From UHGV virus genome UHGV-0213939: 41,293 nt of DNA. One strand, 5' to 3'. Below are positions 25,541 through 41,293 of the stretch, in pieces. The notes under the pieces are model-generated. The model was not told the DNA's origin. It worked only from the letters and a program-made list of their open reading frames with translations, and ran no database searches. How positions within the stretch are numbered: position 1 is the stretch's first letter; each line of letters begins with the position of its first letter. The stretch comes from a virus. Position numbers and translations under genes: made by a program.

Positions 25541-25559
25541 GCTTACCCTCTAATTATGG

Positions 25560-26078: not shown

Positions 26079-26263
26079 CGTCTTCCCCTCTTGCCCTGTT
26101 TGACCATCAGGACGCCGTTAACTATTACGTGACGCTCGCCTTTGCTGTCTCGGTTGTACTTGAGCACTGTTCCTCTTGCGCAGGAAAGCATCCTCGCCAC
26201 TTCGGTCTGATTGCCTCGTGTCTGGATAAGAAGCTCTGGTATCGTTTGAATTGTGGCGTTCAT
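26075..26263 (-). CDS. ninH: NinH
   Basis: 62 aa; ..IPELLIQTRGNQTEVARMLSCARGTVLKYNRDSKGERHVIVNGVLMV.. resembles lambda NinH. Confidence 0.75.
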   Translation of the reverse strand: MNATIQTIPELLIQTRGNQTEVARMLSCARGTVLKYNRDSKGERHVIVNGVLMVKQGKRGRR

Positions 26264-26622
26264 ACGTTCTCCAGTTCGGTGATTTTTATTCCAAGCCTTC
26301 CTCCTGGTACTTTCACACCACGAATTACACGAATGTCGTCGAATTGCTCGTCGTCTTCCGCAAATCCGGCATGGATAAGGGAGTCGAGTAAACCTTTAAG
26401 AATGTTGTCGAGGTCGCGGCGGCGGGAGTCTGGAACGTCTGCGATGACTTTGATGCGGAGTCGTGATTTGGTGAAAATGTCTAACTTGAGTTGGCGGATT
26501 ATTTGCTGTACATCTTTTCGGTATTTCTGGCCTTTATCGCTGATGTAGTATTGGCTTCCCCGTCTTCGCCAGTAGGTATTCACCGACGGCGGGTATGGAA
26601 GCACAAACTGATATTCGTTCAT
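26260..26622 (-). CDS. rusA: Holliday junction resolvase RusA
   Basis: 120 aa; LPYPPSVNTYWRRRG ... DVPDSRRRDLDNILKGLLDSL matches the RusA family pattern. Confidence 0.85.
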   Translation of the reverse strand: MNEYQFVLPYPPSVNTYWRRRGSQYYISDKGQKYRKDVQQIIRQLKLDIFTKSRLRIKVIADVPDSRRRDLDNILKGLLDSLIHAGFAEDDEQFDDIRVIRGVKVPGGRLGIKITELENV

Positions 26623-26909
26623 GACTTAATCTTCCCCTCCTTCAGCAGTATCGCCTGCGTCCTGATCACGCCTTCGAGGTGGTAAAGTCTGGCGTCTTTG
26701 TTGTCGAGGTTATGGGTGCGTCGGTCGATTTCATCGTGACACGCGCTACAAGCCCATGCGCCGATCAGGTCGTCAGGCTTCATTCCCGTTCCGCAAATTC
26801 CAGCCATCCGGTAATGTGCCAGAACTGTAGTTTCAGGATTGCCATTGCATACGCCGTAAATACGTACCTGGCATTCTCTGCCGCGTGCTTCTTTGCGTAG
26901 GTTAGCCAT
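26619..26909 (-). CDS. YbcO-like putative nuclease (DUF1364)
   Basis: 96 aa; ..RKEARGRECQVRIYGVCNGNPETTVLAHYR...CSACHDEIDRRTH.. resembles E. coli DLP12 YbcO. Confidence 0.7.
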   Translation of the reverse strand: MANLRKEARGRECQVRIYGVCNGNPETTVLAHYRMAGICGTGMKPDDLIGAWACSACHDEIDRRTHNLDNKDARLYHLEGVIRTQAILLKEGKIKS

Positions 26910-27178
26910 TATGGTTCACTCCAGTAATTCTCAATTGCAGCAGCCATTCTCTGCATCCACTCAGCCAGCTTTAACGCGGCTTCTCTTTCAGAACCACATT
27001 TAGGGAAATCCTTCATTTCCATGCTGGCCTTATATGTTCTGAATGCCAGGTCTCCGGTAATAATCAGATTCTGATCAAGCACCGAGCGTTTATTCCGGTG
27101 TTGAACGTAATAGACAGATTCAGTCCGCATTTCTTCTCTGTCTTTTTTGAAGGAAATAAGCTCAGAGAAATCACTCAT
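26909..27178 (-). CDS. Hypothetical nin-region protein (89 aa)
   Basis: ORF in an operon-like array with stop/start overlaps to its neighbours; no family recognised. Confidence 0.5.
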   Translation of the reverse strand: MSDFSELISFKKDREEMRTESVYYVQHRNKRSVLDQNLIITGDLAFRTYKASMEMKDFPKCGSEREAALKLAEWMQRMAAAIENYWSEP

Positions 27179-27383
27179 CGTCTTCTTCCTCGTACATTGA
27201 GCTATTCGGATCGCTCATCAGTTCTGCGCAGCAGTGCTCACACACGTGAACTTCCAGCACATGCAGCTTCTGACCGCAGTTAGCGCACGTTAAAGCCCGC
27301 TCGACGCTTTCTTGTTCGTAACTTCGATTTGGGTCAATCACCTTGTTTTCCTCGCACGATGTCTTAGCCACCGGATATCCCAC
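27171..27383 (-). CDS. ninF: NinF (zinc-ribbon protein)
   Basis: ..[39 protein letters not shown].. matches lambda NinF; the true start may be internal. Confidence 0.7.
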
Positions 27384-27520
27384 AGGTGAGCCGTGTAATT
27401 GAAGGTTTTTACGTCAGATTCTTTTTGGATTGGCTTGCGTTTATTTCTGGAGCGTTTCGTTGGAAGGTATTTGCAGTTTTCGCAGATTATGTCGGTGATA
27501 CTTCGTCGCTGTCTCGCCAC
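27338..27520 (-). CDS. ninE: NinE
   Basis: 60 aa; [27 protein letters not shown].. resembles lambda NinE. Confidence 0.7.
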
Positions 27521-27660
27521 ACGTCCTCCTTTTCCTGCGGTAGTGGTAACACCCCTGTTGGTGTTCTTTCACACCGGAGACACCATCGATTCCAGTAAGG
27601 TTGATTTGGTCGGAAGCGGTTATCTTCTTTGCATTCACCGCACCGATAACATCGCATCAT
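27487..27660 (-). CDS. ninD: NinD (zinc-ribbon protein)
   Basis: Internal start [34 protein letters not shown]; ATGA overlap with the ninC stop. The ORF track extends it to 27711. Confidence 0.6.
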
Positions 27661-28529
27661 GCAGCTTCCCTCCCGAAGTCGAAATAAAGCTGCCCTCCAA
27701 ATATTTCGCATGACTCAGAACAAGAGCCGGTATCGAATCTTTTAGCTCGTACCATGTCCTGATACAGGGCTTGATAATCATTTTCTGAATACATTTTCGC
27801 GATACCATCCAGCGACATTCTTCCTCGGTACATAATCTCCTTTGGTGTTTCCCGATGTCCGTCACGCACATGCGATCCCGTGATGACCTCATTAAAAACA
27901 CGCTGCAATCCCTCCTCATCTTTGCAGGCAAGTCCGATTTTTTGCGTTGATTTTTTAATGCAGAATATGCAGTTACCGAGATGTTCCGGTATTTGCAAAT
28001 CGAATGGTTGTTGCTTCCACCATGCGAGGATATCTTCCTTCTCAAAGTCTGACAGCTCAGCAAGATATCTGATTCCAGGCTTTGGCTTTAGCCGCTTCGG
28101 TTCATCAGCTCTGATGCCAATCCACGTGGTGTAATTCCCTCGCCCGAAATGGTCATCACAGTATTTGGTGAAGGGAACGAGTTTTAATCTGTCAGTGCAG
28201 AACGCGCCGCCGACGTATGGAGTGCCATATTTCTTTACCATATCGATAAATGGCTTCAGAACAGGCATTCGCGTCTGAATATCCTTTGGCTCCCATACCG
28301 TATAACCATTTGGCTGCCCAGGCTCTGGGTTGATATCAACCTGCAATACAGTGAGCGGTATATCCCAGAACTTCACAACTTCGCGGATAAACCGATATGT
28401 CATCGGGTGTTCACAACCTGTATCCATGAAAACGTAATGCACGTCTTCACCTGCCTGTCGCTTTTGCTCCATTAGCCAGAGCAAATATGCTGACGTCCTG
28501 CCACCGGAGAAACTAACGACATTTATCAT
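27657..28529 (-). CDS. ninC: NinC (PAPS-reductase-like protein)
   Basis: Homology begins at [23 protein letters not shown] (lambda NinC); the ORF track extends 20 codons upstream to 28589. Confidence 0.85.
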
Positions 28530-28966
28530 GCAGCCTTGTCTCCCCATCTTGCTTTCCACTCCAGAGCCAGTCGCGCTTCGTCTGACCACTTAACGCCACG
28601 TTCTGTACCGAATGCCTGTATAAGCTCTAATAGCTCCGCAAATTCGCCTACCCGCATCCTACTGGTTGACTGGCCTATTACCACAAAGCCAGTCCCGGCA
28701 AGGTTAGGAACAACGTCCTGCTGCTTTAAGGCTGCGGTAAACACACACTTCCAGCTTTCTGCATCCAGCCAGCGACCATGCCATTCAACCTGACGAGAGA
28801 CGTCACCAAGGCAAGCCCAAAGCTTTCGATTCTGGTCTAAGCTGCGGTTGCGTTCCTGAATGGTTACTACGATTGGTTTGGTTGGGTCTGGAAGGATTTG
28901 CTGTACTGCGTGAATAGCGTTTTGCTGATGTGCTGGAGATCGAATTTCAAAGGTTAGCTTTTTCAT
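28526..28966 (-). CDS. ninB: NinB (Orf recombination mediator)
   Basis: Start MKKLTFEIRSPAHQQNAIHAVQQILPDPTKPIVV matches lambda NinB; the ORF track extends to 28984. Confidence 0.85.
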   Translation of the reverse strand: MKKLTFEIRSPAHQQNAIHAVQQILPDPTKPIVVTIQERNRSLDQNRKLWACLGDVSRQVEWHGRWLDAESWKCVFTAALKQQDVVPNLAGTGFVVIGQSTSRMRVGEFAELLELIQAFGTERGVKWSDEARLALEWKARWGDKAA

Positions 28967-29039
28967 GACTTCCCTCTCCCCCAAATAAAAAGGCCTGCGA
29001 TTACCAGCAGGCCTGTTATTAGCTCAGTGATGTAGATGG

Positions 29040-30416
29040 TCATACGTCAGCCCCTTGTGCATATCGTCTGCCACGCGCAGCAGGTGCATTTGATGCTGTA
29101 CAAATCTGTCTGGCTTCATCCTGGTCACATGCAACAAAGTGTCCGTTACAGAACCGCTGGTAAACCGTACCAAGTGAGCCAAAACGGTTTTTCGTCACGA
29201 TGATTTCAGCAAATGGCGCGGCGCTACTGTTCTCGTCATATACCGCTTCCCGATAGAGCATGATGATTGAGTCTGCGTCCTGCTCAATGCTTCCTGAATC
29301 ACGCAAATCTGCGTTTGTCGGGCGTTTGTTTGGTCGCTTCTCAACATCGCGTGAAAGCTGACTTAGGGAGATAACAGGCGTTTTCAGGTCTTTCGCCATC
29401 GCCTTAAGGCTTCCGGAGATGTGAGCAATTGCGAGGTCGTTGCGGTCTGCTTTCGGCTTCTCAATCAGGCCAAGATAATCCGCCATGATGAGTGACAGGT
29501 TTGGATTTTCCTGTTTGTGCCGTTCTGCGATTGAGCGAATTTCTTCGACAGATAACCGCGAGGCATCGACTACCCATACATCCAAATCTGCAAGCTGACT
29601 CATGCCGTTAGCAACGCGCGCCCAGCCTTCGTCATCCATCGATGCAGGATTTCGCAGCACGCTAACCGACATCCTCCCGGCGTTGGCAATGCTTCGCTCT
29701 GCAATCTGCAATGCGCTCATTTCCATCGAGAAAATCAATACTCCGCGCCGGACGTCAGAACCAGGAATAACGCGGCTTGCAACGCCTTCGGCAATCTTCA
29801 GCGCCAGTTCGGTTTTCCCCATACCAGGACGAGCGGCGATAATCACCAGGTCTTCCGCGTTCATCCCTCCGGTGATGGCGTCAAGTTCTTCGATTCCGGT
29901 CTTCAGGGTATCTGACTCTTCTCCGTTCCTCAGACGCCTGTCAAGCGTGTCAGTGTAGTCAGTGATGATTTCCCCTAACCGTACAGGTTTAACCTCGTCA
30001 CGGGGCTTTCTGATGGCTGAGAGCCGTTTTACAAGTTCATCCATCGCCTGACTCGATGCGTCGATGGTTCCGCTTTGGATTGGTTCACGCATTTCATCCA
30101 TGATTTCCAGCACCAGACGGCGGTGATAGTTATCCGCGACCATTCCGGCATATCCCTTCAGGTTTGCGGCACTCGGGCAGTTTTTGCTGGTCATCAGGAT
30201 TGACATGAAATGCTCCTCTCCGCATTCCTCAGCAACCATCAGCGCGTCGATTAGGTTTCTGTTTCGCGCCTGCTTGCGGATAACCTCGAAGGCTTTTCTG
30301 TAGAGCGGAATTGAAAACGCTTCCGGCTCCAGCGTTGCCAGAACGTCACTGGCGGTTGGAGTTAATCCACCAATCAGCAGGCCACCGATAACGCTCGCTT
30401 CGATATCCTGTCTCAT
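29040..30416 (-). CDS. Replicative DNA helicase, DnaB family (P22 gene 12-type)
   Basis: 458 aa; Walker [11 protein letters not shown] and DnaB-like C-terminal domain; located directly downstream of the O-like initiator. Confidence 0.85.
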
Positions 30417-31234
30417 GCAATCCCCCTGTCTGCAAACTTCCCTTCCCGAACTCCCGTTAACGAGTCTTCTCTCAGCAGGTAATCAAAATCAGCCGTCCAG
30501 CCCGTGTCGTTGTCTCCGAAGTAAAACGGCTTGGCCTGATGTACAAACGCCCTGACATACACTCTGAAACCGTCCACGTTTGGCGTTTTCAGTTGCGGGA
30601 TGATTTTCTTCAGGCGGCGTTTGCGTTTCTCGTTGACCGCAACAGCATGTGGAAGTCTGTCACCGACTTCGGTGTTGTAGGCGTTCAGGAAGGATTCGTA
30701 GTCGATTCGTTCTGCCTTGCGACGTTCAGATTTAACCTGCCCATCGCCGCCCCCGTTAGGGGGTAAGGGGGTATTTGTATTTATTGTCTTTTGTATATTG
30801 TCTTTTGTGTTTAGCTGACTTGGCTTATACCCATTAGCTGACTTGGCTAATGTTTTATTAGCTGTTTTAGCTAATGTTAAGCTGTCCTGGCTAATCCACT
30901 GCGAAACCACCTTGTTCACTCCGATTTTCACGCCATCAGCAATGAGGAATTTACGCTCAATAAGCTGGCGCTTGGCAGCGCAAACATGAGTGTGATGAAT
31001 ACCTGTCATGGCTGCTATCTGCGTGTTTGTGAGTCGATCCATCGGCTTATTGAATCCGTATGTCTTGCGCATGATAGCGAGCATCACCTTCAACTGCCGG
31101 ACGGTTAAATCAGCCATCAGCAGACTGTCGGTAATCTCGTTAGCAACGCGCATGAAACCATCTTCGGTATCTGCCACGCGATGCTCCACGACCTCCAGTT
31201 GAGGCCTGTAATCAGCTAACTTAACGACGCCCAT
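30413..31234 (-). CDS. O: Replication initiator O-like protein (iteron-binding N-terminal domain)
   Basis: ..[37 protein letters not shown].. resembles the lambda O N-terminal domain; the gene contains the iteron array. Confidence 0.8.
30811..30892. repeat. ori: Origin of replication iterons inside the O gene: four roughly 15-bp direct repeats (TTAGCTGACTTGGCT-like) at about 30811, 30834, 30858 and 30878, preceded by a duplicated ATTGTCTTTTGT motif
   Basis: Direct repeats read from the sequence; lambda-type ori lies within O in the inter-domain linker. Confidence 0.7.
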
Positions 31235-31382
31235 GTTTCACTCCTGCTTTGGCTAGTCTGTAAACACCAACAAGGCGCTCTGCGAACGCCCTGTTATTTG
31301 CTGCGGCTACCACTAATCCCTCAGGTGAATCAGGGTGTCGAATCTCTTCTTTTTCCTGGTATTTCTTACGACGTTTTGTCAT
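31221..31382 (-). CDS. Possible small basic protein (53 aa) between cII and O
   Basis: Manual translation [53 protein letters not shown] with an AGGAGT RBS; overlaps the start of O by 14 nt. Below the ORF-track size cutoff. Confidence 0.3.
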   Translation of the reverse strand: MTKRRKKYQEKEEIRHPDSPEGLVVAAANNRAFAERLVGVYRLAKAGVKHGRR

Positions 31383-31416
31383 AATTACTCCTGTAGATTG
31401 ATCCAGTCTTTCTACA

Positions 31417-31698
31417 TCAGGCCTCGAAGAATTCGCCGTTCTTCGGGGCTTTTTCTTTTGTCAGGTAATCGGCAAGCCGCTTAGTCAGTTCAGCCATTTC
31501 ATCGTCTTCGATTCCGTATTCCAGAACAGCCAGCATCATGCTTACCTGCGAGAAGAAACCATTCTTCCATCGGCTTACCTGGTATTCCGGAACCCCCATC
31601 GCGCGAGCGAATGTCTTCTGCCCCATCAGTGCCAGTTTGTTCAGCAAGGCTGACTCGATGCGAGCCGCTTTCTTGCTTTTAGTTGCAATAGTACCCAT
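31417..31698 (-). CDS. cII: Transcriptional activator CII
   Basis: ..ARIESALLNKLALMGQKTFARAMGVPEYQVSRWKNGFFSQVSMMLAVLEYG.. resembles lambda CII (..ALRIESALLNKIAMLGTEKTAEAVGVDKSQISRWKRDWIPKFSMLLAVLEWG..). Confidence 0.8.
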   Translation of the reverse strand: MGTIATKSKKAARIESALLNKLALMGQKTFARAMGVPEYQVSRWKNGFFSQVSMMLAVLEYGIEDDEMAELTKRLADYLTKEKAPKNGEFFEA

Positions 31699-31774
31699 AC
31701 ATAATTTCCTTAATGATTAGATAGAGTTGGCTTCGCAAAGAAACGCAAAACCATAGAGATTTTTTTCTGGTAAT

Positions 31775-31806
31775 GCCCTTTTTCAGGGCGGGGATGTATA
31801 AGAGCG
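31775..31806 (-). promoter_or_regulatory. nutR: nutR (boxB GCCCTGAAAAAGGGC and boxA-like CGCTCTTAT on the minus strand)
   Basis: Plus-strand GCCCTTTTTCAGGGC at 31775-31789 is the reverse complement of the lambda nutR boxB; adjacent TAAGAGCG is the boxA complement. Confidence 0.65.
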
Positions 31807-31814
31807 GGAATGTC

Positions 31815-33167
<1,353 letters not shown>

Positions 33168-33217
33168 TCCCCACCTCAATCTCAGTAACCAAAAAACAAA
33201 CTATTTTCCGTTTAAAA

Positions 33218-33285
33218 ACAATGGAGTTTGTTTTTTGTACCTCCATTTACAGTATTTCTTGTTTACAACATACAATCTTTCTTGT
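33218..33285. promoter_or_regulatory. OL: OL operator region with pL: three 434-type operators (ACAATGGAGTTTGT, ACAGTATTTCTTGT, ACAATCTTTCTTGT)
   Basis: ACAA-N6-TTGT sites at 33218-33231, 33249-33262 and 33272-33285, upstream of nutL and N. Confidence 0.75.
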
Positions 33286-33329
33286 AATTTTAAGCCATCA
33301 GCAGGACGCACTGACCACCATGAAGGTGA

Positions 33330-33360
33330 TGCTCTTAAAAATTAAGCCCTGAAGAAGGGC
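33330..33360 (+). promoter_or_regulatory. nutL: nutL (boxA TGCTCTTAA, box[16 protein letters not shown])
   Basis: boxB hairpin GCCCTGAAGAAGGGC at 33346-33360 matches lambda nutL boxB; boxA-like element 8 nt upstream. Confidence 0.75.
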
Positions 33361-33470
33361 AGCATTCAAAGCAGAAGGCTTTGAGTAGCGCGAAATGCAG
33401 CTGCAAGACAGCAACCGTGGGGATAAGCATCACGGCGCGTTACTCAAAGCTAACTGACAGGAGAATCCAG

Positions 33471-33797
33471 ATGGATGCACAAACACGCCGCCGCGAACGT
33501 CGCGCAGAGAAACAGGCTCAATGGAGAGCAGCAAATCCACTGTTGGTTGGGGTAAGCGCAAAACCAGTTAACCGCCCTATTCTCTCGCTGAATCGCAAAC
33601 CGAAATCACGAGTAGAAAGCGCACTGAATCCAATAGACCTTACAGTGCTGGCTGAATACCACGAACAGATTGAAAGCAACCTGCAACGTATTGAGCGAAA
33701 GAATCAGCGCACATGGTACAGCAAGCCACGCAGTGAAATGGGTGTGACTTGTGTCGGTCACCAGAAAATGAAATTAGGCAGCAAACCACTTATTTGA
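33471..33797 (+). CDS. N: Antiterminator N
   Basis: MDAQTRRRERRAEKQAQWRAANPLLVGVSAKPVNRPILSLNRKPKSRVESALNPIDLTVLAEYH.. closely matches lambda N including the arginine-rich motif. The ORF track extends it upstream to 33381. Confidence 0.9.
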   Translation: MDAQTRRRERRAEKQAQWRAANPLLVGVSAKPVNRPILSLNRKPKSRVESALNPIDLTVLAEYHEQIESNLQRIERKNQRTWYSKPRSEMGVTCVGHQKMKLGSKPLI

Positions 33798-33875
33798 GGT
33801 GATATATGGAAGAAGAATTTGAAGAGTTCGAAGAGCATCCGCAGGATGTGATGGAACAATACCAGGACTATCCGT

Positions 33876-34076
33876 ATGACTACGACTATTGATAAAAATC
33901 AATGGTGTGGACAATTCAAACGATGCAATGGATGCAAGCTGCAATCGGAATGCATGGTTAAGCCTGAAGAAATGTTTCCTGTAATGGAAGATGGGAAATA
34001 TGTCGATAAATGGGCAATACGAACGACGGCAATGATTGCCAGAGAACTTGACAAACAGAAAAACAAGGCTGCCTGA
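33876..34076 (+). CDS. ral: Restriction alleviation protein Ral
   Basis: 66 aa; MTTTIDKNQWCGQFKRCNGCKLQSECMVKPEEMFPVMEDGKYVDKWAIRTTAMIARELDKQKNKAA matches lambda Ral from memory. Confidence 0.85.
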   Translation: MTTTIDKNQWCGQFKRCNGCKLQSECMVKPEEMFPVMEDGKYVDKWAIRTTAMIARELDKQKNKAA

Positions 34077-34212
34077 TGGTGGCCTTTATTTTTGGCATAA
34101 ACAACAGAATAAACACTGCACTGTGTATTCATTCCAACGAGTGAATACACGGAGCAATGTCGCTCGTAACTAAACAGGAGCCGACTTGTTCTGATTATTG
34201 GAAATCTTCTTT

Positions 34213-34239
34213 GCCCTCCAATGTGAGGGCGTTTTTTTT
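34213..34239 (+). terminator. Intrinsic terminator in the early-left operon (GCCCTC-loop-GAGGGC followed by T8)
   Basis: Perfect 6-bp GC-rich stem with a 6-nt loop, followed by GTTTTTTTT. Confidence 0.6.
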
Positions 34240-34252
34240 GACGGAGTAAACG

Positions 34253-34501
34253 ATGATAAAAACTGATTACCCTGCAGAGCTTAAACAAAAAGTAATAACA
34301 GCAATTAAATGCTCTTTTATCTCATGTCGTACAGATGAAGAACGATATGTCGTTGAGTGTGCAATTGTCGAGTTTCTCACAGCGATGGAATTTACCGCTG
34401 CAGAATCAATAGATGTATTAAAGCAATCAGACGGAAATGATATTGAAACGGATGATGTTATTGACCGACTAATAAAATCATTCGAAGAAGAAATAGAGTA
34501 G
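34253..34501 (+). CDS. Hypothetical acidic protein (82 aa)
   Basis: ORF immediately after the terminator; strongly acidic C-terminal half (..DGNDIETDDVIDRLIKSFEEEIE); no family recognised. Confidence 0.5.
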   Translation: MIKTDYPAELKQKVITAIKCSFISCRTDEERYVVECAIVEFLTAMEFTAAESIDVLKQSDGNDIETDDVIDRLIKSFEEEIE

Positions 34502-34584
34502 CCGCCTGAGCGCGGCTTTACCGCATACCAATAATGCTTCACGAGAGGCATTTTCGTTATGCAATCAAATATAAGGAGTTACCC

Positions 34585-34719
34585 ATGATGCACTTTCAGC
34601 TCGCGGGTAGCGGCGTCATGTCCGCTTTCTACCCGCACGAATCTGAATTATCACGCCGAGTTAAACAATTAATCAGAGCAGCAAAGAAACAACTGGAGGC
34701 GTTATGCGCAATGAAATAG
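34585..34719 (+). CDS. cIII: CIII-like protein (FtsH inhibitor)
   Basis: Internal start MMHFQLAGSGVMSAFYPHESELSRRVKQLIRA with an AAGGAG RBS; pattern resembles lambda CIII (..AIAGWPVAGCPSESLLERITRKL..). Confidence 0.55.
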   Translation: MMHFQLAGSGVMSAFYPHESELSRRVKQLIRAAKKQLEALCAMK

Positions 34720-34856
34720 CCATTAATCACCAGATGCTTCGTGCTGCACAGAACAAAGCAGTAATAGCCCGATTTATTGGTGATTCAAAAATGTGGCTTG
34801 AAGCAAATAAAGCGATGAAATCAGCTATCAACCTTCCATGGTATCGCAGGAAATGA
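34704..34856 (+). CDS. kil: Kil-like protein (50 aa)
   Basis: Manual translation MRNEIAINHQMLRAAQNKAVIARFIGDSKMWLEANKAMKSAINLPWYRRK; the ..IARFIGDSKMW..A..A.K.. segment resembles lambda Kil. Below the ORF-track size cutoff. Confidence 0.5.
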   Translation: MRNEIAINHQMLRAAQNKAVIARFIGDSKMWLEANKAMKSAINLPWYRRK

Positions 34857-35011
34857 GTTTTACAGATAACTGGTCAGACGAAGAATTCATTCGTCAGATG
34901 AAAGAATTAATCGGTAACGAAGGAGATATGCATGCCACTTGCAACCACAGTGAAGGAGAGCAAGTTACAGAGACGCATGTACACGCAGAAAGCTCTCTGG
35001 TATCGCCATAA
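34853..35011 (+). CDS. Possible small protein (52 aa) between kil and erf
   Basis: ATGA overlap with the kil stop; manual translation MSFTDNWSDEEFIRQMKELIGNEGDMHATCNHSEGEQVTETHVHAESSLVSP. Confidence 0.3.
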   Translation: MSFTDNWSDEEFIRQMKELIGNEGDMHATCNHSEGEQVTETHVHAESSLVSP

Positions 35012-35112
35012 TGGCGACCGCGAAGGAATGCGGGTATGTCTTAATTTGTCCCGAGTCGAAGTATTAAATCAGCGTTATTTCCTTGGGTCATGTCCATTCT
35101 GAGAACAATCAT

Positions 35113-35718
35113 ATGAGCAAAGAATTTTACGCAAGACTGGCAGCTATTCAGGAGAATCTGAACGCGCCAAAGAATCAGTACAACTCATTCGGTAAATATA
35201 AATACAGAAGCTGCGAAGATATTCTTGAAGGCGTTAAGCCGTTACTGAATGGCCTGTTTTTATCAATCAGCGATGAAGTTGTGTTGATTGGTGATCGGTA
35301 TTATGTGAAAGCCACGGCAACTATTACCGATGGCGAAAACAGTCATACGGCAACCGCTCTTGCACGAGAGGAAGAAAGCAAGAAAGGAATGGATTCTGCA
35401 CAAGTTACGGGAGCTACAAGCTCTTATGCACGCAAGTATTGCCTCAATGGTTTGTTCGGCATTGATGATGCGAAAGATGCAGATACCGACGAGCATAAAC
35501 ATCAGCAGAACGCAGCAGCAAAGCAATCAAAACCATCACCTACACCTGAACAGGTTCTAAAAGCATTCACTGACGCAGCAATGCAGAAAAACACCGTAGA
35601 AGAGCTTAAACAGGCGTTCGCCAAAGCGTGGAAGATGCTCGAAGGTACACCGGAGCAGCACAAAGCGCAGGACGTTTACAACATCAGACGAGACGAATTA
35701 GAAGGGGCAACTGCTTAA
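35113..35718 (+). CDS. erf: ERF-family single-strand annealing recombinase
   Basis: MSKEFYARLAAIQENLNAPKNQYNSFGKYKYRSCEDILEGVKPLLNGL.. resembles the P22 Erf N-terminal domain from memory. The ORF track extends the start to 35083. Confidence 0.7.
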   Translation: MSKEFYARLAAIQENLNAPKNQYNSFGKYKYRSCEDILEGVKPLLNGLFLSISDEVVLIGDRYYVKATATITDGENSHTATALAREEESKKGMDSAQVTGATSSYARKYCLNGLFGIDDAKDADTDEHKHQQNAAAKQSKPSPTPEQVLKAFTDAAMQKNTVEELKQAFAKAWKMLEGTPEQHKAQDVYNIRRDELEGATA

Positions 35719-36101
35719 TGGCACACTCGATTACTGTAAGACTAAACAAGCCAGCAAGAGAGTTTCAGGCCGGGGAAAATATCGGATTCAATATCCGTGC
35801 TGGCGTTCAGTATTACGATCGCCAGACAAAAAAGAAAGAATGGACAAACTACAGCGCCGTTGTATTTGCCAAGCCGGGAGCGCAAGCGGATTACTACCGT
35901 AGTATTCTTGTTGAAGGTGGCATTGTAGAAATTACCGGAGAAAACATCAGGGTTGATGTTTATCAGGGGCAAAATGGTCAATCAATCACTCTTGAATTAC
36001 TGAATGCAAAGATTGGATTTGCAACATCAGGAAACTGCCAACAGCAACAAAGTAGCAATCATCAAAATCATCCTGAATACGATGATTCAATTCCCTTCTA
36101 A
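35718..36101 (+). CDS. SSB-like single-stranded DNA-binding protein (OB fold with acidic C-terminal tail)
   Basis: Start MAHSITVRLNK.. overlaps the erf stop (TAATG). C-terminus ..PEYDDSIPF mimics the E. coli SSB tail (..DDDIPF). Confidence 0.6.
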   Translation: MAHSITVRLNKPAREFQAGENIGFNIRAGVQYYDRQTKKKEWTNYSAVVFAKPGAQADYYRSILVEGGIVEITGENIRVDVYQGQNGQSITLELLNAKIGFATSGNCQQQQSSNHQNHPEYDDSIPF

Positions 36102-36124
36102 ATTAGCAATATAAGGATTCCATT

Positions 36125-36418
36125 ATGCCAGCGCCTATGTATGGTGCGGATGACCCGCGCCGCTGTTCCGGCAAATCAGTATCGGAGGTGCTGGATAAAT
36201 TCAGAAAAAACTACGACCTGATAATGTCGCTACCGCAGGAAACGAAAGAGGAAAAGGAATTTCGTCATTGTATATGGCTTGCAGAGAAAGAAGAACGCGA
36301 GCGAATTTACCAGACATCAATCCGACCATTCCGTAAAGCCACATATACCCACTTCCCTGAAATTGACCCACGCCTGCGTAATTACCGCTCACGCTATGGC
36401 GCTATCAGTAATGACTGA
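36125..36418 (+). CDS. Hypothetical protein (97 aa)
   Basis: ORF in the co-directional early-left array; no family recognised. Confidence 0.5.
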
Positions 36419-36593
36419 GGAATTTACCATGAGAGGACTTGCATACAATCCCGGCATTCTTCCGGCAGAAATGATTATTCGCCAACGCGTAAAGCCAATG
36501 CCATCGAGAGAGGAATTGCTTAAGAGAAATTCTTTTCCTTCAGTGAATCAAAACAAATATCTGAATGCGATGTGGCGGAGTGGGAAGAAATGA
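36411..36593 (+). CDS. Possible small protein (60 aa)
   Basis: Start [15 protein letters not shown].. overlaps the stop of the previous ORF; the ORF track shows a longer frame from 36279. Confidence 0.35.
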
Positions 36594-37297
36594 AACAAAT
36601 GTCACTAATTGAGATGGATGGTTTTCTGAAAGGTAAATGCATCCCACGTGATTTAAAGGTTAACGAAACAAACGCTGAATATCTTGTCCGTAAGTTCGGT
36701 GAACTTGAATCAAAACTCAACGAGCAACGCGAGTATTACGAGGGAGTAATCGCGGATGGAAGTAAGCACATAGCAGAACTGGAAAAACAATGCGCCGAAT
36801 GGGAGCGAAAAGCATTAAGCAACTTTGAAGAGTGTGCTGCGATGGCTGAACGTATCGAAGAGTTGCAGACAAAATCTGCACCAGATTCGTTTGGCATCAT
36901 CGGTGAAAATATTCGAACACAGGATAATCGAATAACGTCAGACCCTATGTTTTGTGTGTATCAAAAGCGCGAAATCGTTGTTGATGCTGATTATGACTAT
37001 GACCGGATTGTCTGGGTTGATGAAGATGGCAATGAAGCAAATAAACGCCAAAGTCGTCGTCTCGAACTACTTCATGAAAACTTTCGAGAACCACCAGAAA
37101 AATGGCGGCGCGTTGCTGTGAAAGATATTGATGAGTTCGTTACTTGCTGTTTCACCGAACAGGGGTGTAAAGACTACCTGGCAGCCAATGGTCACAATCT
37201 TCGCTTGCCATTTATATATGTAAAAAGCGGTTTCAGAAACGCTGAATATATCGGCATCAGAAACTGGCTTGCTGGCATTCGCATCAAAGGAGAGTGA
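36572..37297 (+). CDS. Ead/Ea22-like protein
   Basis: 241 aa with coiled-coil N-terminal half and a C-terminal segment (..[27 protein letters not shown]..) typical of lambdoid Ea22-like proteins as I remember them. Confidence 0.55.
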
Positions 37298-37298
37298 G

Positions 37299-37487
37299 GT
37301 GAACGGACAAATATCAATTATTCGCCCTGGCGCTTGTGACGAAGAGATAAGGCTGATTATCCGCCTTGCGATGGGTAGAACAATAGCTGCTCTCATTACT
37401 CCAGAAAATCTCGCATTAGCATTAACCGGAAAGTCAGACCTGCCAGTAGAGCTAAAGCTGCGAAATGTTGAGATTAAGGTGAAATAG
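37299..37487 (+). CDS. Hypothetical protein (about 62 aa, probable GTG start)
   Basis: AGGAGAG RBS followed by GTG; the ORF track lists 37269..37487. Confidence 0.4.
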   Translation: MNGQISIIRPGACDEEIRLIIRLAMGRTIAALITPENLALALTGKSDLPVELKLRNVEIKVK

Positions 37488-37489
37488 CT

Positions 37490-38206
37490 ATGACCACTAT
37501 TACCAAAGAACGTGCGGAGATTAAATCATTCATCAATGGTTTCCTGAGCGACCGGGCGCACGATAACCAATCTTCAAACAGCCTGCTTGCCAATGTGTTT
37601 CGTATCGCGCTGGCATCGCTGGTAGCAGAACCGGTGGCATATCAGTATCGCCAGTGGGATGCAGAATATGATGAATGGGGAGAATGGGAAGATTGCGGGG
37701 AATATGCTTTCGAAAGATTTGTTGAGGAAGAGAAATGCCAGGGGGCAGGTGTTCAGACCCGTAAGCTATACGCCACGCCGCCAATGCTGGTAGTGCCGGA
37801 TGAACGGGCTGCCTATGAGTTATTTATGGAGAAGCATTTCGGGGATTCTGTAGATCGCCGCAGGGCAAAAAATGGCGATAGCGAATACATGGCATGGGAT
37901 ATGGCGATTGGCTGGATTATCTGGTGTCACCGCGCCGCTATGTTTCAGGCCGGAAACTTTCGGGAAAATAAGAATTCGTCAACCAGCTCCCCGGCAACTA
38001 AGGATGGTTGGATAAGCTGTAGTGAGCGAATGCCGGAAGAAACGGGTGACATTATTGTTGTTTCGGATGGCATTGTAATGTCCGGGATTTCTTATTCTCG
38101 TCGTGACGGGTTCTATATAGCCGCATTGGAGTACGACGACGATGAACCAATTGACGGAGTAACCCACTGGATGCCTCTACCAGAACCGCCGCAGGAGGTG
38201 AAATGA
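37490..38206 (+). CDS. DUF551-domain protein
   Basis: C-terminal ..DGIVMSGISYSRRDGFYIAALEYDDDEPIDGVTHWMPLPEPP.. is the characteristic DUF551 signature seen in lambdoid early regions. Confidence 0.55.
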   Translation: MTTITKERAEIKSFINGFLSDRAHDNQSSNSLLANVFRIALASLVAEPVAYQYRQWDAEYDEWGEWEDCGEYAFERFVEEEKCQGAGVQTRKLYATPPMLVVPDERAAYELFMEKHFGDSVDRRRAKNGDSEYMAWDMAIGWIIWCHRAAMFQAGNFRENKNSSTSSPATKDGWISCSERMPEETGDIIVVSDGIVMSGISYSRRDGFYIAALEYDDDEPIDGVTHWMPLPEPPQEVK

Positions 38207-38267
38207 TGCTTGGCCTGAAGTATTTTATGTAATTGGTATTGCTATATTTTTATCTGGGGATAAACGA

Positions 38268-38510
38268 ATGTTCTCTCTGATTCAACGTGGTCAGATATAC
38301 ACCGATAGCGCCGGCTATCCAGTAAAAATCATTCGTAGTACTGATCACTCAGTATTCTTCAAGAGGATGGATGGCTATCCTGGAAGGGTGTGCATCAGAA
38401 AATTCAATAATTTATTCGAACACATTGATCACAGAGAATATCACCAGATCCTGGCTGAAACAGAACAGGAGAACCATCTGAAAAAATTACGTGCCATGCA
38501 AAGGAGATAA
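38268..38510 (+). CDS. Hypothetical protein (80 aa)
   Basis: ORF track; no family recognised. Confidence 0.45.
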   Translation: MFSLIQRGQIYTDSAGYPVKIIRSTDHSVFFKRMDGYPGRVCIRKFNNLFEHIDHREYHQILAETEQENHLKKLRAMQRR

Positions 38511-38542
38511 ACCGGTAAAGGTGTTCGCGATAAAGGTAAATA

Positions 38543-38884
38543 TTGATGGCTAAATCAGCAGCAGAGCGCAAAGCCGCTCAGAGAGCCAGACAAGCTGCAT
38601 CTGGTGTGCGTAAGCTGGAAATTGTGCTTGATGCTCAGGAAATTGAAATGCTGGAGCGTAACTGTGCCACGCGTCGCCCCGGGCGTGCGCCTTACGAATT
38701 TGGTGAGTATATAGCGTTACTGATCCGCCAGGATGATGCACGCGTGCGCGGGCGTATAAAATCGATCAGCAGAAAACGTTGCGGTAAGTGCGGCGAGAGA
38801 GTTCCTGTAAATTCATGCCCGTGTAATGGTGACTCGCAATGCTGGGTGACTAAAGGCTGGCATGAAACGAAATTAATATTGTGA
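38543..38884 (+). CDS. Hypothetical protein with C-terminal Cys cluster (113 aa)
   Basis: Basic N-terminus and CGKCGERVPVNSCPCNGDSQC zinc-ribbon-like motif; family not recognised. Confidence 0.45.
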   Translation: MMAKSAAERKAAQRARQAASGVRKLEIVLDAQEIEMLERNCATRRPGRAPYEFGEYIALLIRQDDARVRGRIKSISRKRCGKCGERVPVNSCPCNGDSQCWVTKGWHETKLIL

Positions 38885-39005
38885 CATGTCACGAATGGAT
38901 TATGCATGATGAATTTGATGGGTTTTGAATACTGCCGCCAACTATGGCGGCTTTATTTTGCATGATACTATTACCAAAACGGTAACTATTACCAAGGTGG
39001 TTATT

Positions 39006-39599
39006 ATGCCAGCTGAACCTAAAACCTATAAACGCAAATCAACGCAATTTAAGCCACTAACAGCAATGCAGGAGGCTTATTGTCAGTCGTACATCAAAAC
39101 GCCTGAAAACCAGACTCAGGCAGCGATTAACGCAGGATTCTCTCCAAATACAGCGGCAGTTAAAGCCAGTGTTATGATGCGCGATGAACGCATTCAGAAA
39201 CGGATTGCCGAGCTGATGGAGGAACGCAACAAACGAATGCGCGTCAGTGCCGATTACGTTCTTATGCGCCTGGTGGAGATCGACCAGATGGACGTGATCG
39301 ACATCCTCAACGACGATGGGAGCCTTAAGCCAATCCGCGAGTGGCCGAAAATATGGCGCACTACGCTTAGCGGCTTTGATCTGTCATCGACCATCATGAA
39401 CATGAACGAGGATTCGATAGAGACAATCCTCAAAAAAATTAAATGGCCTGACAAGGTGAAGAACCTTGAGCTGATTGGTAAGCATGTTGATGTTAACGCG
39501 TTTAAAGAACGCCTGGATGTTAATGTGAATGTGACAATTGCAGATCGCATAGCAGCGGCCAGGAAGCGACTCAAAGAACGCCAGGATGGTAATCAGTGA
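39006..39599 (+). CDS. Terminase small subunit (second, non-lambda type)
   Basis: Start MPAEPKTYKRK.. with RBS; ..MQEAYCQSYIKTPENQTQAAINAGFSPNTA.. is a typical HTH segment of small terminase subunits. The ORF track extends to 38925. Confidence 0.6.
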   Translation: MPAEPKTYKRKSTQFKPLTAMQEAYCQSYIKTPENQTQAAINAGFSPNTAAVKASVMMRDERIQKRIAELMEERNKRMRVSADYVLMRLVEIDQMDVIDILNDDGSLKPIREWPKIWRTTLSGFDLSSTIMNMNEDSIETILKKIKWPDKVKNLELIGKHVDVNAFKERLDVNVNVTIADRIAAARKRLKERQDGNQ

Positions 39600-41071
39600 C
39601 AGATACAGCGTTATCTCCTGAAGAGCAGTTAATCGAGGATATTGCAGGGTTCACTCACGATCCGCTTGGCTATGCCCTCTATGCGTTCCCGTGGGGGGAA
39701 GAGGGGACTGAACTGGCACATGCTACCGGCCCACGTCAGTGGCAGGCTGATGCGTTCCGAGAGATACGTGATCACCTGCAGAATCCAGAGACGCGCTATC
39801 AGCCGCTTATGTTGGCACGCGCTTCTGGTCACGGTATTGGTAAATCCGCATTCATCTCAATGCTGATCAACTGGGGCATGTCCACTTGCGAGGATTGTAA
39901 GGTCGTGGTGACCGCCAACACCGACAACCAGCTACGAACGAAGACCTGGCCGGAAATTATCAAGTGGTCGAACCTTGCTATCACGAAAGACTGGTTTACC
40001 TGTACCGCTACCGCGATGTACAGCAATGACCCTGGGCACGACAAGCGGTGGCGGGCTGACGCAATACCCTGGTCTGAGCACAACACTGAGGCATTCGCCG
40101 GACTACACAACGAGCGCAAACGCATCATCGTGGTATTCGATGAAGCGTCGAACATTGCGGATCTGGTGTGGGAAGTTGCTGAGGGTGCGCTTACGGACGA
40201 AGACACTGAGATTATCTGGGTGGCGTTCGGAAACCCTACACGTAACACCGGGCGTTTTCGCGAATGTTTCCGCAAATATAAACACCGCTGGAAAACTGCG
40301 CAGATTGACAGCCGGACGGTGGAAGGCACTAACAAACAGCAGTTGCAGAAATGGGTTGATGACTACGGGGAAGACAGCGACTTCGTTAAAATCCGTGTGC
40401 GCGGCATATTCCCGGATGCATCTGAATTGCAGTTTATCCCTACCGGCCTTACTGACGAGGCAATGAAACGGGTGGTAACCGCTGCGCAGGTTGCACATGC
40501 TCCGGTGATAATCGGCGTTGACCCGGCATACTCCGGCGTTGATGACGCTGTGATATACCTGCGGCAGGGGCTGCACAGTAAGGTGCTGTGGACTGGCAAC
40601 AAGACCACTGACGATCTGATTATGGCGAAGCGTATCGCTGACTTTGAAGACCAGTACCAGGCTGACGCAGTGTTCATCGACTTCGGTTACGGAACTGGTC
40701 TGAAGTCAATCGGTGATGGCTGGGGTCGTACATGGCAACTTGTTCCGTTCGGTGGCGCGTCTACTGACCCGCAGATGCTCAACAAGCGTGGGGAGATGTT
40801 CAACTCATGCAAGACATGGCTGAGGCTGGGCGGCATGCTGGATGACCAGGAAACAGCGGACGACCTGTCTGCGGCAGAGTACAAAGTTCGAGTGGACGGT
40901 AAAATCGTTATCGAACCGAAGGAAGATATCAAGGAGCGGCTTGGGCGTTCTCCTGGTAAAGGCGATGCGCTACTGCTGACGTTTGCGTTCCCTGTGTCGA
41001 AGCGCCTGCGAATTCCTGGGCTGCAGAACCAGCAGGGCAGGGCAATCATGGATTACGACCCGTTTGCTTAA
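39596..41071 (+). CDS. Terminase large subunit (second, non-lambda type)
   Basis: 491 aa; Walker A-like ARASGHGIGKS, Walker B IIVVFDEAS, C-terminal nuclease-like domain (VIIGVDPAYSG). GTG start overlaps the TerS stop. Confidence 0.8.
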   Translation: MTDTALSPEEQLIEDIAGFTHDPLGYALYAFPWGEEGTELAHATGPRQWQADAFREIRDHLQNPETRYQPLMLARASGHGIGKSAFISMLINWGMSTCEDCKVVVTANTDNQLRTKTWPEIIKWSNLAITKDWFTCTATAMYSNDPGHDKRWRADAIPWSEHNTEAFAGLHNERKRIIVVFDEASNIADLVWEVAEGALTDEDTEIIWVAFGNPTRNTGRFRECFRKYKHRWKTAQIDSRTVEGTNKQQLQKWVDDYGEDSDFVKIRVRGIFPDASELQFIPTGLTDEAMKRVVTAAQVAHAPVIIGVDPAYSGVDDAVIYLRQGLHSKVLWTGNKTTDDLIMAKRIADFEDQYQADAVFIDFGYGTGLKSIGDGWGRTWQLVPFGGASTDPQMLNKRGEMFNSCKTWLRLGGMLDDQETADDLSAAEYKVRVDGKIVIEPKEDIKERLGRSPGKGDALLLTFAFPVSKRLRIPGLQNQQGRAIMDYDPFA

Positions 41072-41076
41072 AGTGA

Positions 41077-41293
41077 CTATAATTCATCATTGCGAGCATT
41101 AACCTTATTGGTTTTATAGTCTCTCTTTTTTTGGGTTGTTAATGTTTTGTTGATTTCGTCAAAATATAGTTCTACACCTTTATTAAATTCTAGTGTATAT
41201 GCTCCGTTAACACTTACTGGTTTTATTAATGATGGGTATCTAGTGTGATTGTGCCTAATTGAGTTTTCAGTGATTTCATTCCGTTTCTTTAAT
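41077..41293 (-). CDS. C-terminal fragment of a very AT-rich gene entering from beyond the right edge
   Basis: Manual translation of the minus strand gives a 71-codon stop-free frame (..NSIRHNHTRYPSLIKPVSVNGAYTLEFNKGVELYFDEINKTLTTQKKRDYKTNKVNARNDEL) ending at a TAG stop (plus-strand CTA at 41077-41079). A stop-free run of this length is unusual in such AT-rich DNA. Confidence 0.35.
   Translation of the reverse strand, partial: LKKRNEITENSIRHNHTRYPSLIKPVSVNGAYTLEFNKGVELYFDEINKTLTTQKKRDYKTNKVNARNDEL

What the first reader, a model, noticed from the sequence alone, without database searches (positions are those of the whole stretch)
38925..41293. Second, unrelated terminase pair where integrase/excisionase are expected, followed by a very AT-rich convergent gene
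Seen in sequence: the lambdoid element already has a complete Nu1/A terminase and cos (18956-21590). At the far end of the early-left arm, where lambda-like prophages normally carry xis, int and attL, there is instead a TerS-like (39006-39599) and TerL-like (39596-41071) pair with overlapping stop/start, and no portal gene follows. The last 220 bp are extremely AT-rich and contain the C-terminus of a convergent minus-strand gene. No integrase or excisionase is present anywhere in the window. Inference: this marks a junction with a second prophage or remnant (tandem or mosaic), or a terminase module captured as cargo, and suggests that this element cannot integrate or excise on its own.
Basis: partly seen in the sequence, partly recalled or inferred. 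Interest (0 to 1): 0.5.

Follow-up and report, generated by a model that had tools for sequence, protein, structure and literature searches.

The report
Three prophages joined at shared repeats
The "extra" terminase genes are the normal first packaging genes of a phiV10/epsilon15-type phage, and the window switches into that phage at a 358-base stretch identical in both; the window is a chain of three ordinary E. coli prophages joined at exact repeats, so this is most likely an assembly mis-join or, less likely, a private rearrangement.

Summary
TerS (39006-39599) and TerL (39596-41071) are intact, overlap by GTGA, and are followed by 222 bp at 31% GC that end a convergent gene. No int or xis is in the window.

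The pair is not cargo. It is the native terminase of a Uetakevirus (phiV10/epsilon15 type), 98-99% identical in protein to phiV10. Window 38168-41293 is 100% identical to canonical Uetakevirus prophage contigs, where the order is regulator, TerS, TerL, a convergent 310-aa gene, a 68-aa gene, then portal. The portal lies about 1.9 kb beyond the window.

The switch into this phage occurs within 358 bp (38168-38525, DUF4222 module) that are identical in both parents.

The "lambdoid element" is itself composite. Window 1-24306 is a lambda-type late region. Window 24227-38525 is the early region of a P22-like prophage whose integrase normally follows the repeat. These two are joined within 80 identical bases in Rz.

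Neither junction appears in 5,426 complete E. coli genomes or in about 124 contigs carrying the flanking genes.

Verdict: most likely an assembly chimera (about 0.6), otherwise repeat-mediated recombination between co-resident prophages (about 0.3). Both are known phenomena. Low interest.

The parts
1..24306 (-). Segment phi1: lambda-type late region, running from tail fibres through head genes, gpA, Nu1 and cos to the Beta/cII pair and most of Rz.
   Evidence: 100% identical to L023/L025 over 1-10464 and to L038/L039 over 8956-24306, 0 mismatches in 15,351 bases. In all 24 contigs carrying the exact gpA, this region is natively preceded by a different lysis/Q region and a serine recombinase. 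The tail side continues into sitABCD-like genes, then iraM, ycgX, bluR and bluF.
18956..21401 (-). Lambda-type terminase: gpA (18956-20881) and Nu1 (20856-21401).
   Evidence: Pfam GpA_ATPase, GpA_nuclease and Phage_Nu1.
21579..21590 (-). Lambda cos cohesive-end 12-mer GGGCGGCGACCT.
   Evidence: Exact match.
24227..24306 (.). Junction 1 crossover interval: 80 bp identical in phi1 and phi2, at the 5' end of Rz (Rz is 23860-24318, minus strand).
   Evidence: The window has 0 mismatches to phi1 left of 24307 and 0 mismatches to phi2 right of 24226.
24227..38525 (.). Segment phi2: lysis genes, Q, nin region, O/DnaB, cII, cro (minus strand), and cI, N, Ral, cIII, Kil, Erf, Abc2, Ea22-like, DUF551 and DUF4222 (plus strand). 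Natively this is the early region of a P22-like prophage.
   Evidence: 100% identical to L041 over 24227-36078 and to L008 over 27490-38525. All 24 contigs carrying the exact Q continue into P22 gp3/gp2 terminase, portal, scaffold and coat. Natively the region ends with a 114-aa gene, a 76-aa gene and a 402-aa integrase at arpB/yniD.
37490..38206 (+). DUF551 gene, 238 aa. Its last 39 bp lie inside the shared repeat.
   Evidence: Pfam DUF551. The exact protein occurs only in the phi2-type context in the 24 contigs read.
38168..38525 (+). Junction 2 crossover interval: 358 bp identical in phi2 and the Uetakevirus. It covers the DUF551 3' end, the intergenic spacer and DUF4222 (38268-38510).
   Evidence: Bounded by phi2-type bases at 38163, 38165 and 38167, and by Uetakevirus-type bases at 38526, 38528 and 38538.
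38546..38884 (+). 112-aa regulator, first Uetakevirus-only gene (homolog of phiV10 gp55 and epsilon15 gp49).
   Evidence: phrog_536. 98.2% identical to phiV10 gp55. All 10 distinct contexts are canonical Uetakevirus prophages.
39006..39599 (+). TerS. An alternative TTG start at 38925 gives the 224-aa form annotated in phiV10.
   Evidence: Pfam Terminase_2 and phrog_51. 98.2% identical to phiV10 gp1.
39596..41071 (+). TerL, 491 aa, intact.
   Evidence: phrog_5902 and phrog_2. 98.8% identical to phiV10 gp2 and 99.2% to PAS61, full length without gaps. The exact protein is listed in 56 blocks of the collection, and all 24 contigs read are Uetakevirus prophages.
41077..41293 (-). 3' end (71 codons plus stop) of a 310-aa convergent gene. 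It occupies the variable TerL-portal slot and has 33% GC.
   Evidence: 100% identical to the C-terminus of L003 11482-12414. Matches phrog_13369 and phrog_35327, both of unknown function.

Best explanation
The TerS/TerL pair is the ordinary, intact packaging module of a Uetakevirus (phiV10/epsilon15-type podovirus) prophage. It sits in its native order: regulator, TerS, TerL, convergent variable gene, then, just beyond the window, a 68-aa gene, portal and head genes.

It appears 'where int/xis should be' because the window changes parent inside a 358-bp stretch (38168-38525, DUF4222 module). That stretch is base-for-base identical in the far end of the leftward early operon (the cI side) of a P22-like lambdoid prophage and in the far end of the rightward early operon (the cro side) of the Uetakevirus.

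The window contains a second switch of the same kind, within 80 identical bases in Rz. That switch joins a lambda-type late region to the P22-like early region. The window is therefore a path through three prophages, phi1, phi2 and phi3. In many independent assemblies these three exist as separate, canonical elements.

I judge the joins most likely to have been made by the assembler, that is, a chimeric contig that crosses from one prophage to another at exact repeats, rather than in the cell.

Shown: the three-parent structure, the crossover intervals, and the native contexts. Inferred: that the joins are computational.
For: Native order in phiV10, PAS61 and the SW070919 prophage.

The exact TerL is on 24 contigs, all canonical Uetakevirus with portal downstream.

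Segment identities:
- 38168-41293 is 100% identical to L003, L005 and L006, up to the last base of the window.
- 27490-38525 is 100% identical to L008.
- 24227-36078 is 100% identical to L041, and 8956-24306 is 100% identical to L038/L039.
- 1-10464 is 100% identical to L023/L025.

Crossover intervals bounded by parent-specific bases.

Native partners differ from the window in every contig read:
- gpA context, 24 of 24.
- Q context, 24 of 24, all P22-like late genes.
- DUF551 context, 24 of 24: the five contig types that extend past the repeat all continue to an integrase. One contig type (L012) ends inside the repeat.
- Regulator context, 10 distinct places, all Uetakevirus.
- The junction-specific hybrid Rz protein is on only 4 contigs. 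Three are P22-like prophages and one is a 1.3-kb fragment with a different downstream gene. None is followed by Beta/cII-cos-Nu1.

No complete E. coli genome out of 5,426 covers either junction.

A k=141 contig of the same phi2 sequence (L012) stops at 38308, which is 38168+140. That is the expected signature of a repeat with two left contexts in that sample, so assemblers do meet a branch here.

Two unsupported repeat-mediated joins within 41 kb are more economically explained by one error-prone path than by two independent chromosomal events.
Against: No reads are available, so the mis-join is not demonstrated.

An 80-bp repeat is normally spanned by 150-bp reads and should be resolved correctly.

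Unitig-type assemblers break at such repeats rather than cross them.

By synteny with the K-12 map (my own knowledge, an inference), both repeat pairs are in inverted orientation. Two inversions could therefore produce exactly this arrangement in a viable chromosome.

Prophage-mediated rearrangements are documented in E. coli (bioRxiv 10.1101/2020.12.02.407981; PMC8112680).

Absence from databases is expected for a recent private rearrangement as well. The window's own contig is not in the indexed collection, so its assembler and read type are unknown.
Confidence: 0.6

Rival explanations
1. The joins are real. Homologous recombination occurred between co-resident prophages at the 80-bp Rz stretch and the 358-bp DUF4222 stretch, by RecA or by the phage Erf/RecT recombinases. 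This would give two chromosomal inversions, or a Campbell-type insertion of a circular phage genome into a resident prophage through the repeat. The result would be a locked-in hybrid element whose integrase and att sites are now elsewhere.
For: The crossovers fall inside stretches of perfect identity, as homologous recombination requires. Each segment is 100% identical to its parent, which fits a recent event. phi2 encodes Erf and Abc2, and Uetakeviruses encode RecT. The L012 contig end indicates that at least two elements bearing the repeat co-occur in one sample. By K-12 synteny (inference), phi1 at icd/e14, phi2 at arpB/yniD and phi3 at guaA (PMC9782041) place both repeat pairs in inverted orientation. 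Prophage-driven rearrangements are documented (bioRxiv 10.1101/2020.12.02.407981; PMC8112680).
Against: It needs two independent rare events. Neither junction, nor the reciprocal of junction 2, is seen in any contig or complete genome examined. The second inversion would lie within one replichore and span about 0.8 Mb, a class that is usually counter-selected (own knowledge). A short-read assembler would face the same two-copy repeats, so a clean 41-kb hybrid contig is no easier to obtain.
Confidence: 0.3
2. The window is part of one functional recombinant lambdoid phage genome that carries the Uetakevirus regulator, TerS, TerL and 310-aa gene block as cargo in place of its int/xis region.
For: The lambda-type late genes plus the P22-like-associated early region would be a workable lambdoid combination, since the same early region occurs with HK97-type and P22-type virions. 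At 41.3 kb plus a small gap, the size would fit lambda packaging limits (own knowledge).
Against: Identity to the Uetakevirus prophage runs undisturbed to the last base of the window, in the middle of the 310-aa gene. Nothing marks an end to the supposed cargo. The DNA beyond the two window ends in the parental contigs shares no sequence that could close a circle. No phage record has this architecture. Such a phage would lack any integrase.
Confidence: 0.04
3. Two prophages lie in simple tandem, or one is nested in the other, after site-specific integration, with an att site between them.
For: Prophages that integrate into prophages are known in E. coli (PMC8112680).
Against: The switch lies inside a 358-bp homologous coding module. 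There is no att site. The Uetakevirus attP core is absent from the window. No integrase lies at the boundary. The Uetakevirus part starts in the middle of its rightward early operon (the cro side), not at a prophage end.
Confidence: 0.02

Closest known systems
Uetakevirus (phiV10 / epsilon15 / PAS61 / ZX5 / TL-2011b) packaging module
   Same: TerS is 98.2% and TerL 98.8% identical in protein to phiV10 gp1 and gp2, and the regulator is 98.2% identical to gp55. The order is the same: regulator, TerS, TerL, then a convergent small gene before the portal.
   Different: In the window the upstream genes are those of a P22-like prophage's leftward early operon (the cI side), rather than the Uetakevirus replication and Ea22 genes. 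The occupant of the TerL-portal slot is a 310-aa protein, not phiV10 gene 3, which is Gp49/Sf6 gene 66-like.
Repeat-mediated recombination between co-resident prophages in E. coli, including large chromosomal rearrangements in O157:H7 and prophages inserted into prophages
   Same: The junctions lie in stretches of perfect identity shared by different prophages. Each hybrid would be separated from its own integrase and att sites.
   Different: Those published cases are supported by long reads or closed genomes (bioRxiv 10.1101/2020.12.02.407981; PMC8112680). Here there is no read support, and neither the junctions nor the reciprocal of junction 2 were found elsewhere.
Modular mosaicism of lambdoid phages, that is, exchange at short conserved boundary sequences (own knowledge of the Hendrix/Casjens literature)
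   Same: The DUF4222 module is 100% identical in a P22-like prophage and a Uetakevirus. The Rz 5' end is identical in a lambda-type and a P22-like prophage. The hybrid Rz allele also occurs naturally in other P22-like prophages.
   Different: Ordinary mosaics yield one coherent phage genome. This window runs from one complete late region into the start of another.
Chimeric contigs formed at inter-prophage repeats in short-read or metagenome assemblies
   Same: There are switches between parents at exact repeats, each segment is identical to a separately assembled canonical element, and a k=141 contig breaks at exactly the predicted position in the same repeat.
   Different: This was not demonstrated for this window, because the reads and the assembler are unknown.

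Membership tests
Terminase small subunit, Pfam Terminase_2 (PF03592) | Profile match above the curated gathering score. | tested here: met
   104.4 bits against a cutoff of 26.1, E=1e-29, covering profile positions 1-138 of 141. Also phrog_51, E=8e-58.
Terminase large subunit of the phiV10/epsilon15 type | Full-length homology to the TerL of characterised, viable phages of the genus. | tested here: met
   98.8% identity over 491/491 aa to phiV10 gp2, and 99.2% to PAS61, with no gaps or stops. phrog_5902 and phrog_2. No Pfam, NCBIfam or PDB sequence hit.
Terminase large subunit of the phiV10/epsilon15 type | Intact ATPase motifs (Walker A and B) and nuclease acidic residues. | tested here: inconclusive
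   A Walker A-like motif SGHGIGKS and a Walker B motif IIVVFDE are present. The nuclease residues were not mapped on a structure. Their intactness is inferred from near-identity to functional phages.
Uetakevirus genome, with the pair in its native place | Gene order: regulator, TerS, TerL, convergent variable gene, 68-aa gene, portal, head genes. | tested here: met
   Met as far as the window reaches, base 41293. The remainder is seen in the contigs examined (L003, L005, L006), which are 100% identical to window 38168-41293, and in phiV10.
Uetakevirus genome, with the pair in its native place | Upstream Uetakevirus replication and early genes (DnaT-like, P, DUF1064). | tested here: not met
   Upstream of 38168 the window is 100% the P22-like prophage.
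Self-sufficient lambdoid prophage | Own integrase and excisionase, and att sites at the end of the leftward early arm (the cI side). | tested here: not met
   tblastn with the parental int and xis-like proteins finds nothing in the window. In the parent they follow the repeat directly.
Self-sufficient lambdoid prophage | One coherent genome, with late and early regions linked in independent assemblies. | tested here: not met
   The exact gpA and the exact Q never share a contig context like the window's, in 24 plus 24 contigs.
Terminase genes as cargo or moron, or satellite-type packaging hijack | Terminase gene or genes detached from cognate portal and head genes, embedded in a foreign element with both boundaries visible. 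| not testable with these tools
   The window ends 222 bp after TerL. Identity to an intact Uetakevirus continues to the last base, which argues against this reading.
Assembly chimera | Reads fail to support the junctions, or read depth differs between segments. | not testable with these tools
   No reads are available.

The most novel reading that the evidence does not exclude
The joins are real, and the element is a locked-in tripartite prophage. Transcription from the P22-like phage's leftward early promoter, made termination-resistant by its N protein, would run directly into an intact Uetakevirus regulator, TerS, TerL and morphogenesis operon. On induction, the element cannot excise. It could therefore package chromosome in place from the Uetakevirus packaging site as well as from lambda cos, acting as a built-in lateral-transduction device for neighbouring host DNA.
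Probability: 0.07. Interest if true: 0.45.

Novelty: already known. Interest (0 to 1): 0.13.

Why it matters
The main value is as a caution. A "second terminase replacing int/xis" looked like an unusual prophage architecture. Base-level comparison shows three ordinary prophages strung together at exact repeats of 80 bp and 358 bp.

If the joins are artefacts, the contig should not be used to infer gene content, completeness or host range of a phage.

If they are real, they add one more example of prophage-mediated rearrangement. They would leave hybrid elements unable to excise, which is known biology in E. coli.

A small positive by-product is that the gap between TerL and portal in Uetakeviruses turns out to be a variable slot. 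It holds at least four unrelated types of convergent gene, all of unknown function.

Tried and rejected
1. Finding the AT-rich tail elsewhere. blastn against complete E. coli genomes and against phage records found nothing. Two exact k-mers against GTDB species representatives found nothing. The tail was finally found only through contigs that encode the exact TerL.

2. Locating the window's own contig. The truncated 71-aa end product is not on record. The junction-specific Rz protein gave 4 contigs, none with the window's context. The source therefore remains unknown.

3. Pattern scans for the hybrid junction and for its reciprocal in IMG/VR and the JGI metagenomes gave 0 hits. The two parental junctions used as controls also gave 0 in IMG/VR. 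These negatives therefore have no power, and I do not count them. The patterns themselves work on held loci.

4. Circular-genome reading. The DNA beyond the two ends shares no sequence. The possible in-frame fusion across a hypothetical join is a one-in-three coincidence.

5. Site-specific tandem insertion. There is no att core and no integrase at the boundary.

6. Degraded pseudogenes. Rejected: both genes are full length and near-identical to those of viable phages.

7. Function of the 310-aa gene. Pfam, PADLOC, NCBIfam and PDB sequences gave only coiled-coil noise.

8. The look-up of the Beta protein, as a route to the source contig, was uninformative. It is listed in 7,358 blocks of the collection.
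Full report
**1. Observation**

The two ORFs are real. TerS is at 39006-39599. An alternative TTG start at 38925 gives the 224-aa form annotated in phiV10. It matches Pfam Terminase_2 (E=1e-29) and phrog_51 (E=8e-58). TerL is at 39596-41071, a 491-aa protein with a GTG start. It matches phrog_5902 (E=2e-100) and phrog_2, terminase large subunit (E=1e-52). The TerS stop and TerL start overlap as GTGA.

The last 222 bp have 30.6% GC. They encode the final 71 codons of a minus-strand gene whose stop codon lies 5 bp after the TerL stop.

It comprises Nu1, gpA with its ATPase and nuclease domains, a lambda-family portal, and the exact cos 12-mer at 21579-21590. TerL and gpA have no detectable similarity.

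No integrase or excisionase homolog is in the window.

**2. What the pair is**

The region from about 38150 to 41071 is 96-97% identical in DNA to Uetakevirus phages such as PAS61, phiv142-3, ZX5, TL-2011b and phiV10, and to many E. coli prophages. The proteins are 98-99% identical to phiV10 gp1, gp2 and gp55, full length and without gaps.

In phiV10, PAS61 and a prophage next to guaA, the native order is: repressor, cro-like gene, DnaT-like gene, P, DUF1064, Ea22 and DUF551-type genes, regulator, TerS, TerL. After TerL comes a small convergent gene, sometimes a tRNA-Arg, then a 68-aa gene and the portal and head genes. A terminase pair followed by a convergent gene is therefore the normal Uetakevirus layout.

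The exact TerL protein occurs on many contigs. All 24 that were read are canonical Uetakevirus prophages. Three of them (L003, L005, L006) are identical to window 38168-41293 at every base, including the AT-rich tail up to the last base of the window. In those contigs the tail belongs to a 310-aa gene with 33% GC. The portal starts 1.9 kb after TerL, just outside the window.

Across Uetakevirus prophages, the TerL-portal gap holds alternative convergent genes:
- the 310-aa protein (phrog_13369);
- 139/140-aa proteins (phrog_4846);
- a 115-aa protein (phrog_3163);
- Gp49/Sf6 gene 66-family proteins, 118-124 aa.

It is a variable slot, not a prophage boundary. The 310-aa protein looks like a hydrophobic N-terminal region followed by a long coiled coil (my reading of the sequence). 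It has no Pfam, PADLOC, NCBIfam or PDB assignment.

**3. Why the pair sits where int/xis should be**

The window's DUF551 protein (37490-38206) occurs, in identical form, on many contigs. All 24 read carry the phi2 early region. In the five contig types that extend past the repeat, it is followed by DUF4222, a 114-aa gene, a 76-aa xis-like gene or an excisionase, and an integrase, then host genes. One contig type, L012, ends inside the repeat. The finished chromosome of strain A3 shows the same order, ending next to arpB, yniD, ydiY and pfkB.

Window 27490-38525 is 100% identical to one such contig, L008. The window matches the integrase-bearing parent up to 38545 and the Uetakevirus from 38159 on.

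Parent-specific bases narrow the switch to 38168-38525:
- phi2-type bases at 38163, 38165 and 38167;
- Uetakevirus-type bases at 38526, 38528 and 38538.

These 358 bp are identical in both parents. They cover the DUF551 3' end, a spacer and DUF4222.

**4. The 'lambdoid element' is itself composite**

The window's exact gpA occurs on 24 contigs. In all of them the region upstream of Rz differs from the window. They carry a 71-aa holin, a 165-aa lysozyme, a porin, a 127-aa Q and a serine recombinase. Identity to the window is 100% over 8956-24306 and stops at the Rz/lysozyme boundary.

Conversely, the window's exact Q occurs on 24 contigs, all of which are P22-like prophages. In them, Rz is followed by KilA-N, Gp49, P22 gp3/gp2 terminase, P22 portal, scaffold and coat. 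One of these contigs, L041, is 100% identical to window 24227-36078.

The switch lies within 24227-24306. These are 80 bp identical in both parents, at the 5' end of Rz.

The window is therefore made of three segments:
- phi1, a lambda-type late region, 1-24306. Its tail side flanks sitABCD, iraM and bluF, which is the icd/e14 neighbourhood.
- phi2, the early region of a P22-like prophage, 24227-38525.
- phi3, the start of the Uetakevirus late region, 38168-41293.

Each segment is a perfect copy of a separately assembled canonical element.

**5. Is either junction seen elsewhere?**

No. No complete E. coli genome out of 5,426 covers junction 2 or the wider architecture, and none covers the phi1-phi2 combination. 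No phage record does either. None of the roughly 124 contigs read around TerL, DUF551, the regulator, gpA, Q and the hybrid Rz shows the window's joins.

The junction-specific Rz protein occurs on only four contigs. Three are P22-like prophages, and one is a 1.3-kb fragment with a different downstream gene. None is followed by Beta/cII-cos-Nu1.

Pattern scans of IMG/VR and the JGI metagenomes were negative. The parental controls were also negative in IMG/VR, so I give those scans no weight. The patterns work on held loci.

One k=141 contig of phi2 (L012) ends at 38308, which is exactly 38168+140. A de Bruijn unitig stops there when the repeat has two left contexts in the sample. The repeat is therefore a genuine branch point for assemblers, and the elements bearing it do co-occur.

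**6. Mechanism and rival explanations**

Both an assembler and a cell would place the joins inside perfect repeats, and both would leave the flanks identical to the parents.

I favour a chimeric contig, at about 0.6. Two independent joins, each unsupported elsewhere, lie within 41 kb. Every independent assembly examined shows the parental links.

A real origin, at about 0.3, remains possible. My knowledge of the K-12 map places phi1 at icd/e14, phi2 at arpB/yniD and phi3 at guaA (PMC9782041). On that map both repeat pairs are inverted, so two inversions could generate exactly this order. This is an inference. Recombination between prophages is documented in E. coli (bioRxiv 10.1101/2020.12.02.407981; PMC8112680).

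'Terminase as cargo in one phage genome' is unlikely, at about 0.04. Identity to the intact Uetakevirus runs to the window's last base, and nothing closes a circle.

Site-specific tandem integration is contradicted, because the boundary has neither an att core nor an integrase.

**7. Novelty and verdict**

All parts are known: a Uetakevirus terminase identical to database proteins, lambdoid mosaic modules, and either assembly chimerism or repeat-mediated prophage recombination.

The readings 'cargo', 'no portal' and 'AT-rich boundary' are effects of the window's edge.

Interest is low. The useful output is the base-level map of the two crossover intervals and the read-level test that would settle artefact against rearrangement.

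Noticed in passing
window 21814-23443 (AT-rich block, 39-43% GC, between cos and Rz): A convergent, overlapping gene pair. The 355-aa gene matches Pfam Beta_protein and the PADLOC models PD-Lambda-2_C and beta. The 206-aa gene matches NCBIfam sce7726 family, Pfam Phage_P4_cII and the PADLOC cII model of the gop-beta-cII system. It looks like a defence-type accessory gene pair. The exact Beta protein is listed in 7,358 blocks of the assembly collection, always between Nu1 and the lysis genes of lambda-type prophages. No gop-like third gene was looked for.
   Followed up: partly
L003 11482-13385, and the equivalent gap in L001, L002, L013-L022 and L036 (beyond window 41071): The TerL-portal gap of Uetakeviruses is a variable slot. 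It holds at least four unrelated types of convergent gene: 310 aa, 139/140 aa, 115 aa, and Gp49/Sf6 gene 66 family (118-124 aa). One prophage also has a tRNA-Arg there. All are of unknown function, and none is in PADLOC.
   Followed up: partly
window 41077-41293, and L003 11482-12414 (minus strand): The 310-aa protein has 33% GC. It looks like a hydrophobic N-terminal region plus a coiled coil of about 150 residues (my reading of the sequence). It matches phrog_13369 and phrog_35327. This allele is absent from 5,426 complete E. coli genomes and from the phage records, but it is present in several metagenome and draft contigs.
   Followed up: partly
window 38168-38525: The DUF4222 module is base-for-base identical in a P22-like prophage, where it sits in the leftward early operon (the cI side), and in a Uetakevirus, where it sits in the rightward early operon (the cro side). 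The similarity has sharp boundaries at 38159 and 38545. This points to recent exchange between two different phage groups.
   Followed up: yes
L012 (contig end corresponds to window 38308): A k=141 contig of the phi2 prophage stops exactly 140 bases into the perfect repeat (38168+140). This shows how the repeat fragments short-read assemblies.
   Followed up: yes
L023 10677-14126 and L024 (beyond window position 1): The tail end of phi1 is followed by a sitABCD-like metal ABC transporter operon and two acetyltransferase genes. Host genes iraM, ycgX, bluR and bluF come next. This suggests cargo at the end of a prophage in the icd/e14 site.
   Followed up: no
L046 10538-11008 and L047 6118-6588: In the P22-like prophages that naturally carry the same Rz allele as the window, Rz is followed by a 156-aa protein that matches Pfam Tad2-like, an anti-Thoeris family.
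   Followed up: no
L038 1-1673: The native early side of phi1 has no replication module in the 10 kb shown. It carries a large serine recombinase, an esterase and a porin gene between Q and the holin. phi1 may be a defective or unusual prophage.
   Followed up: no
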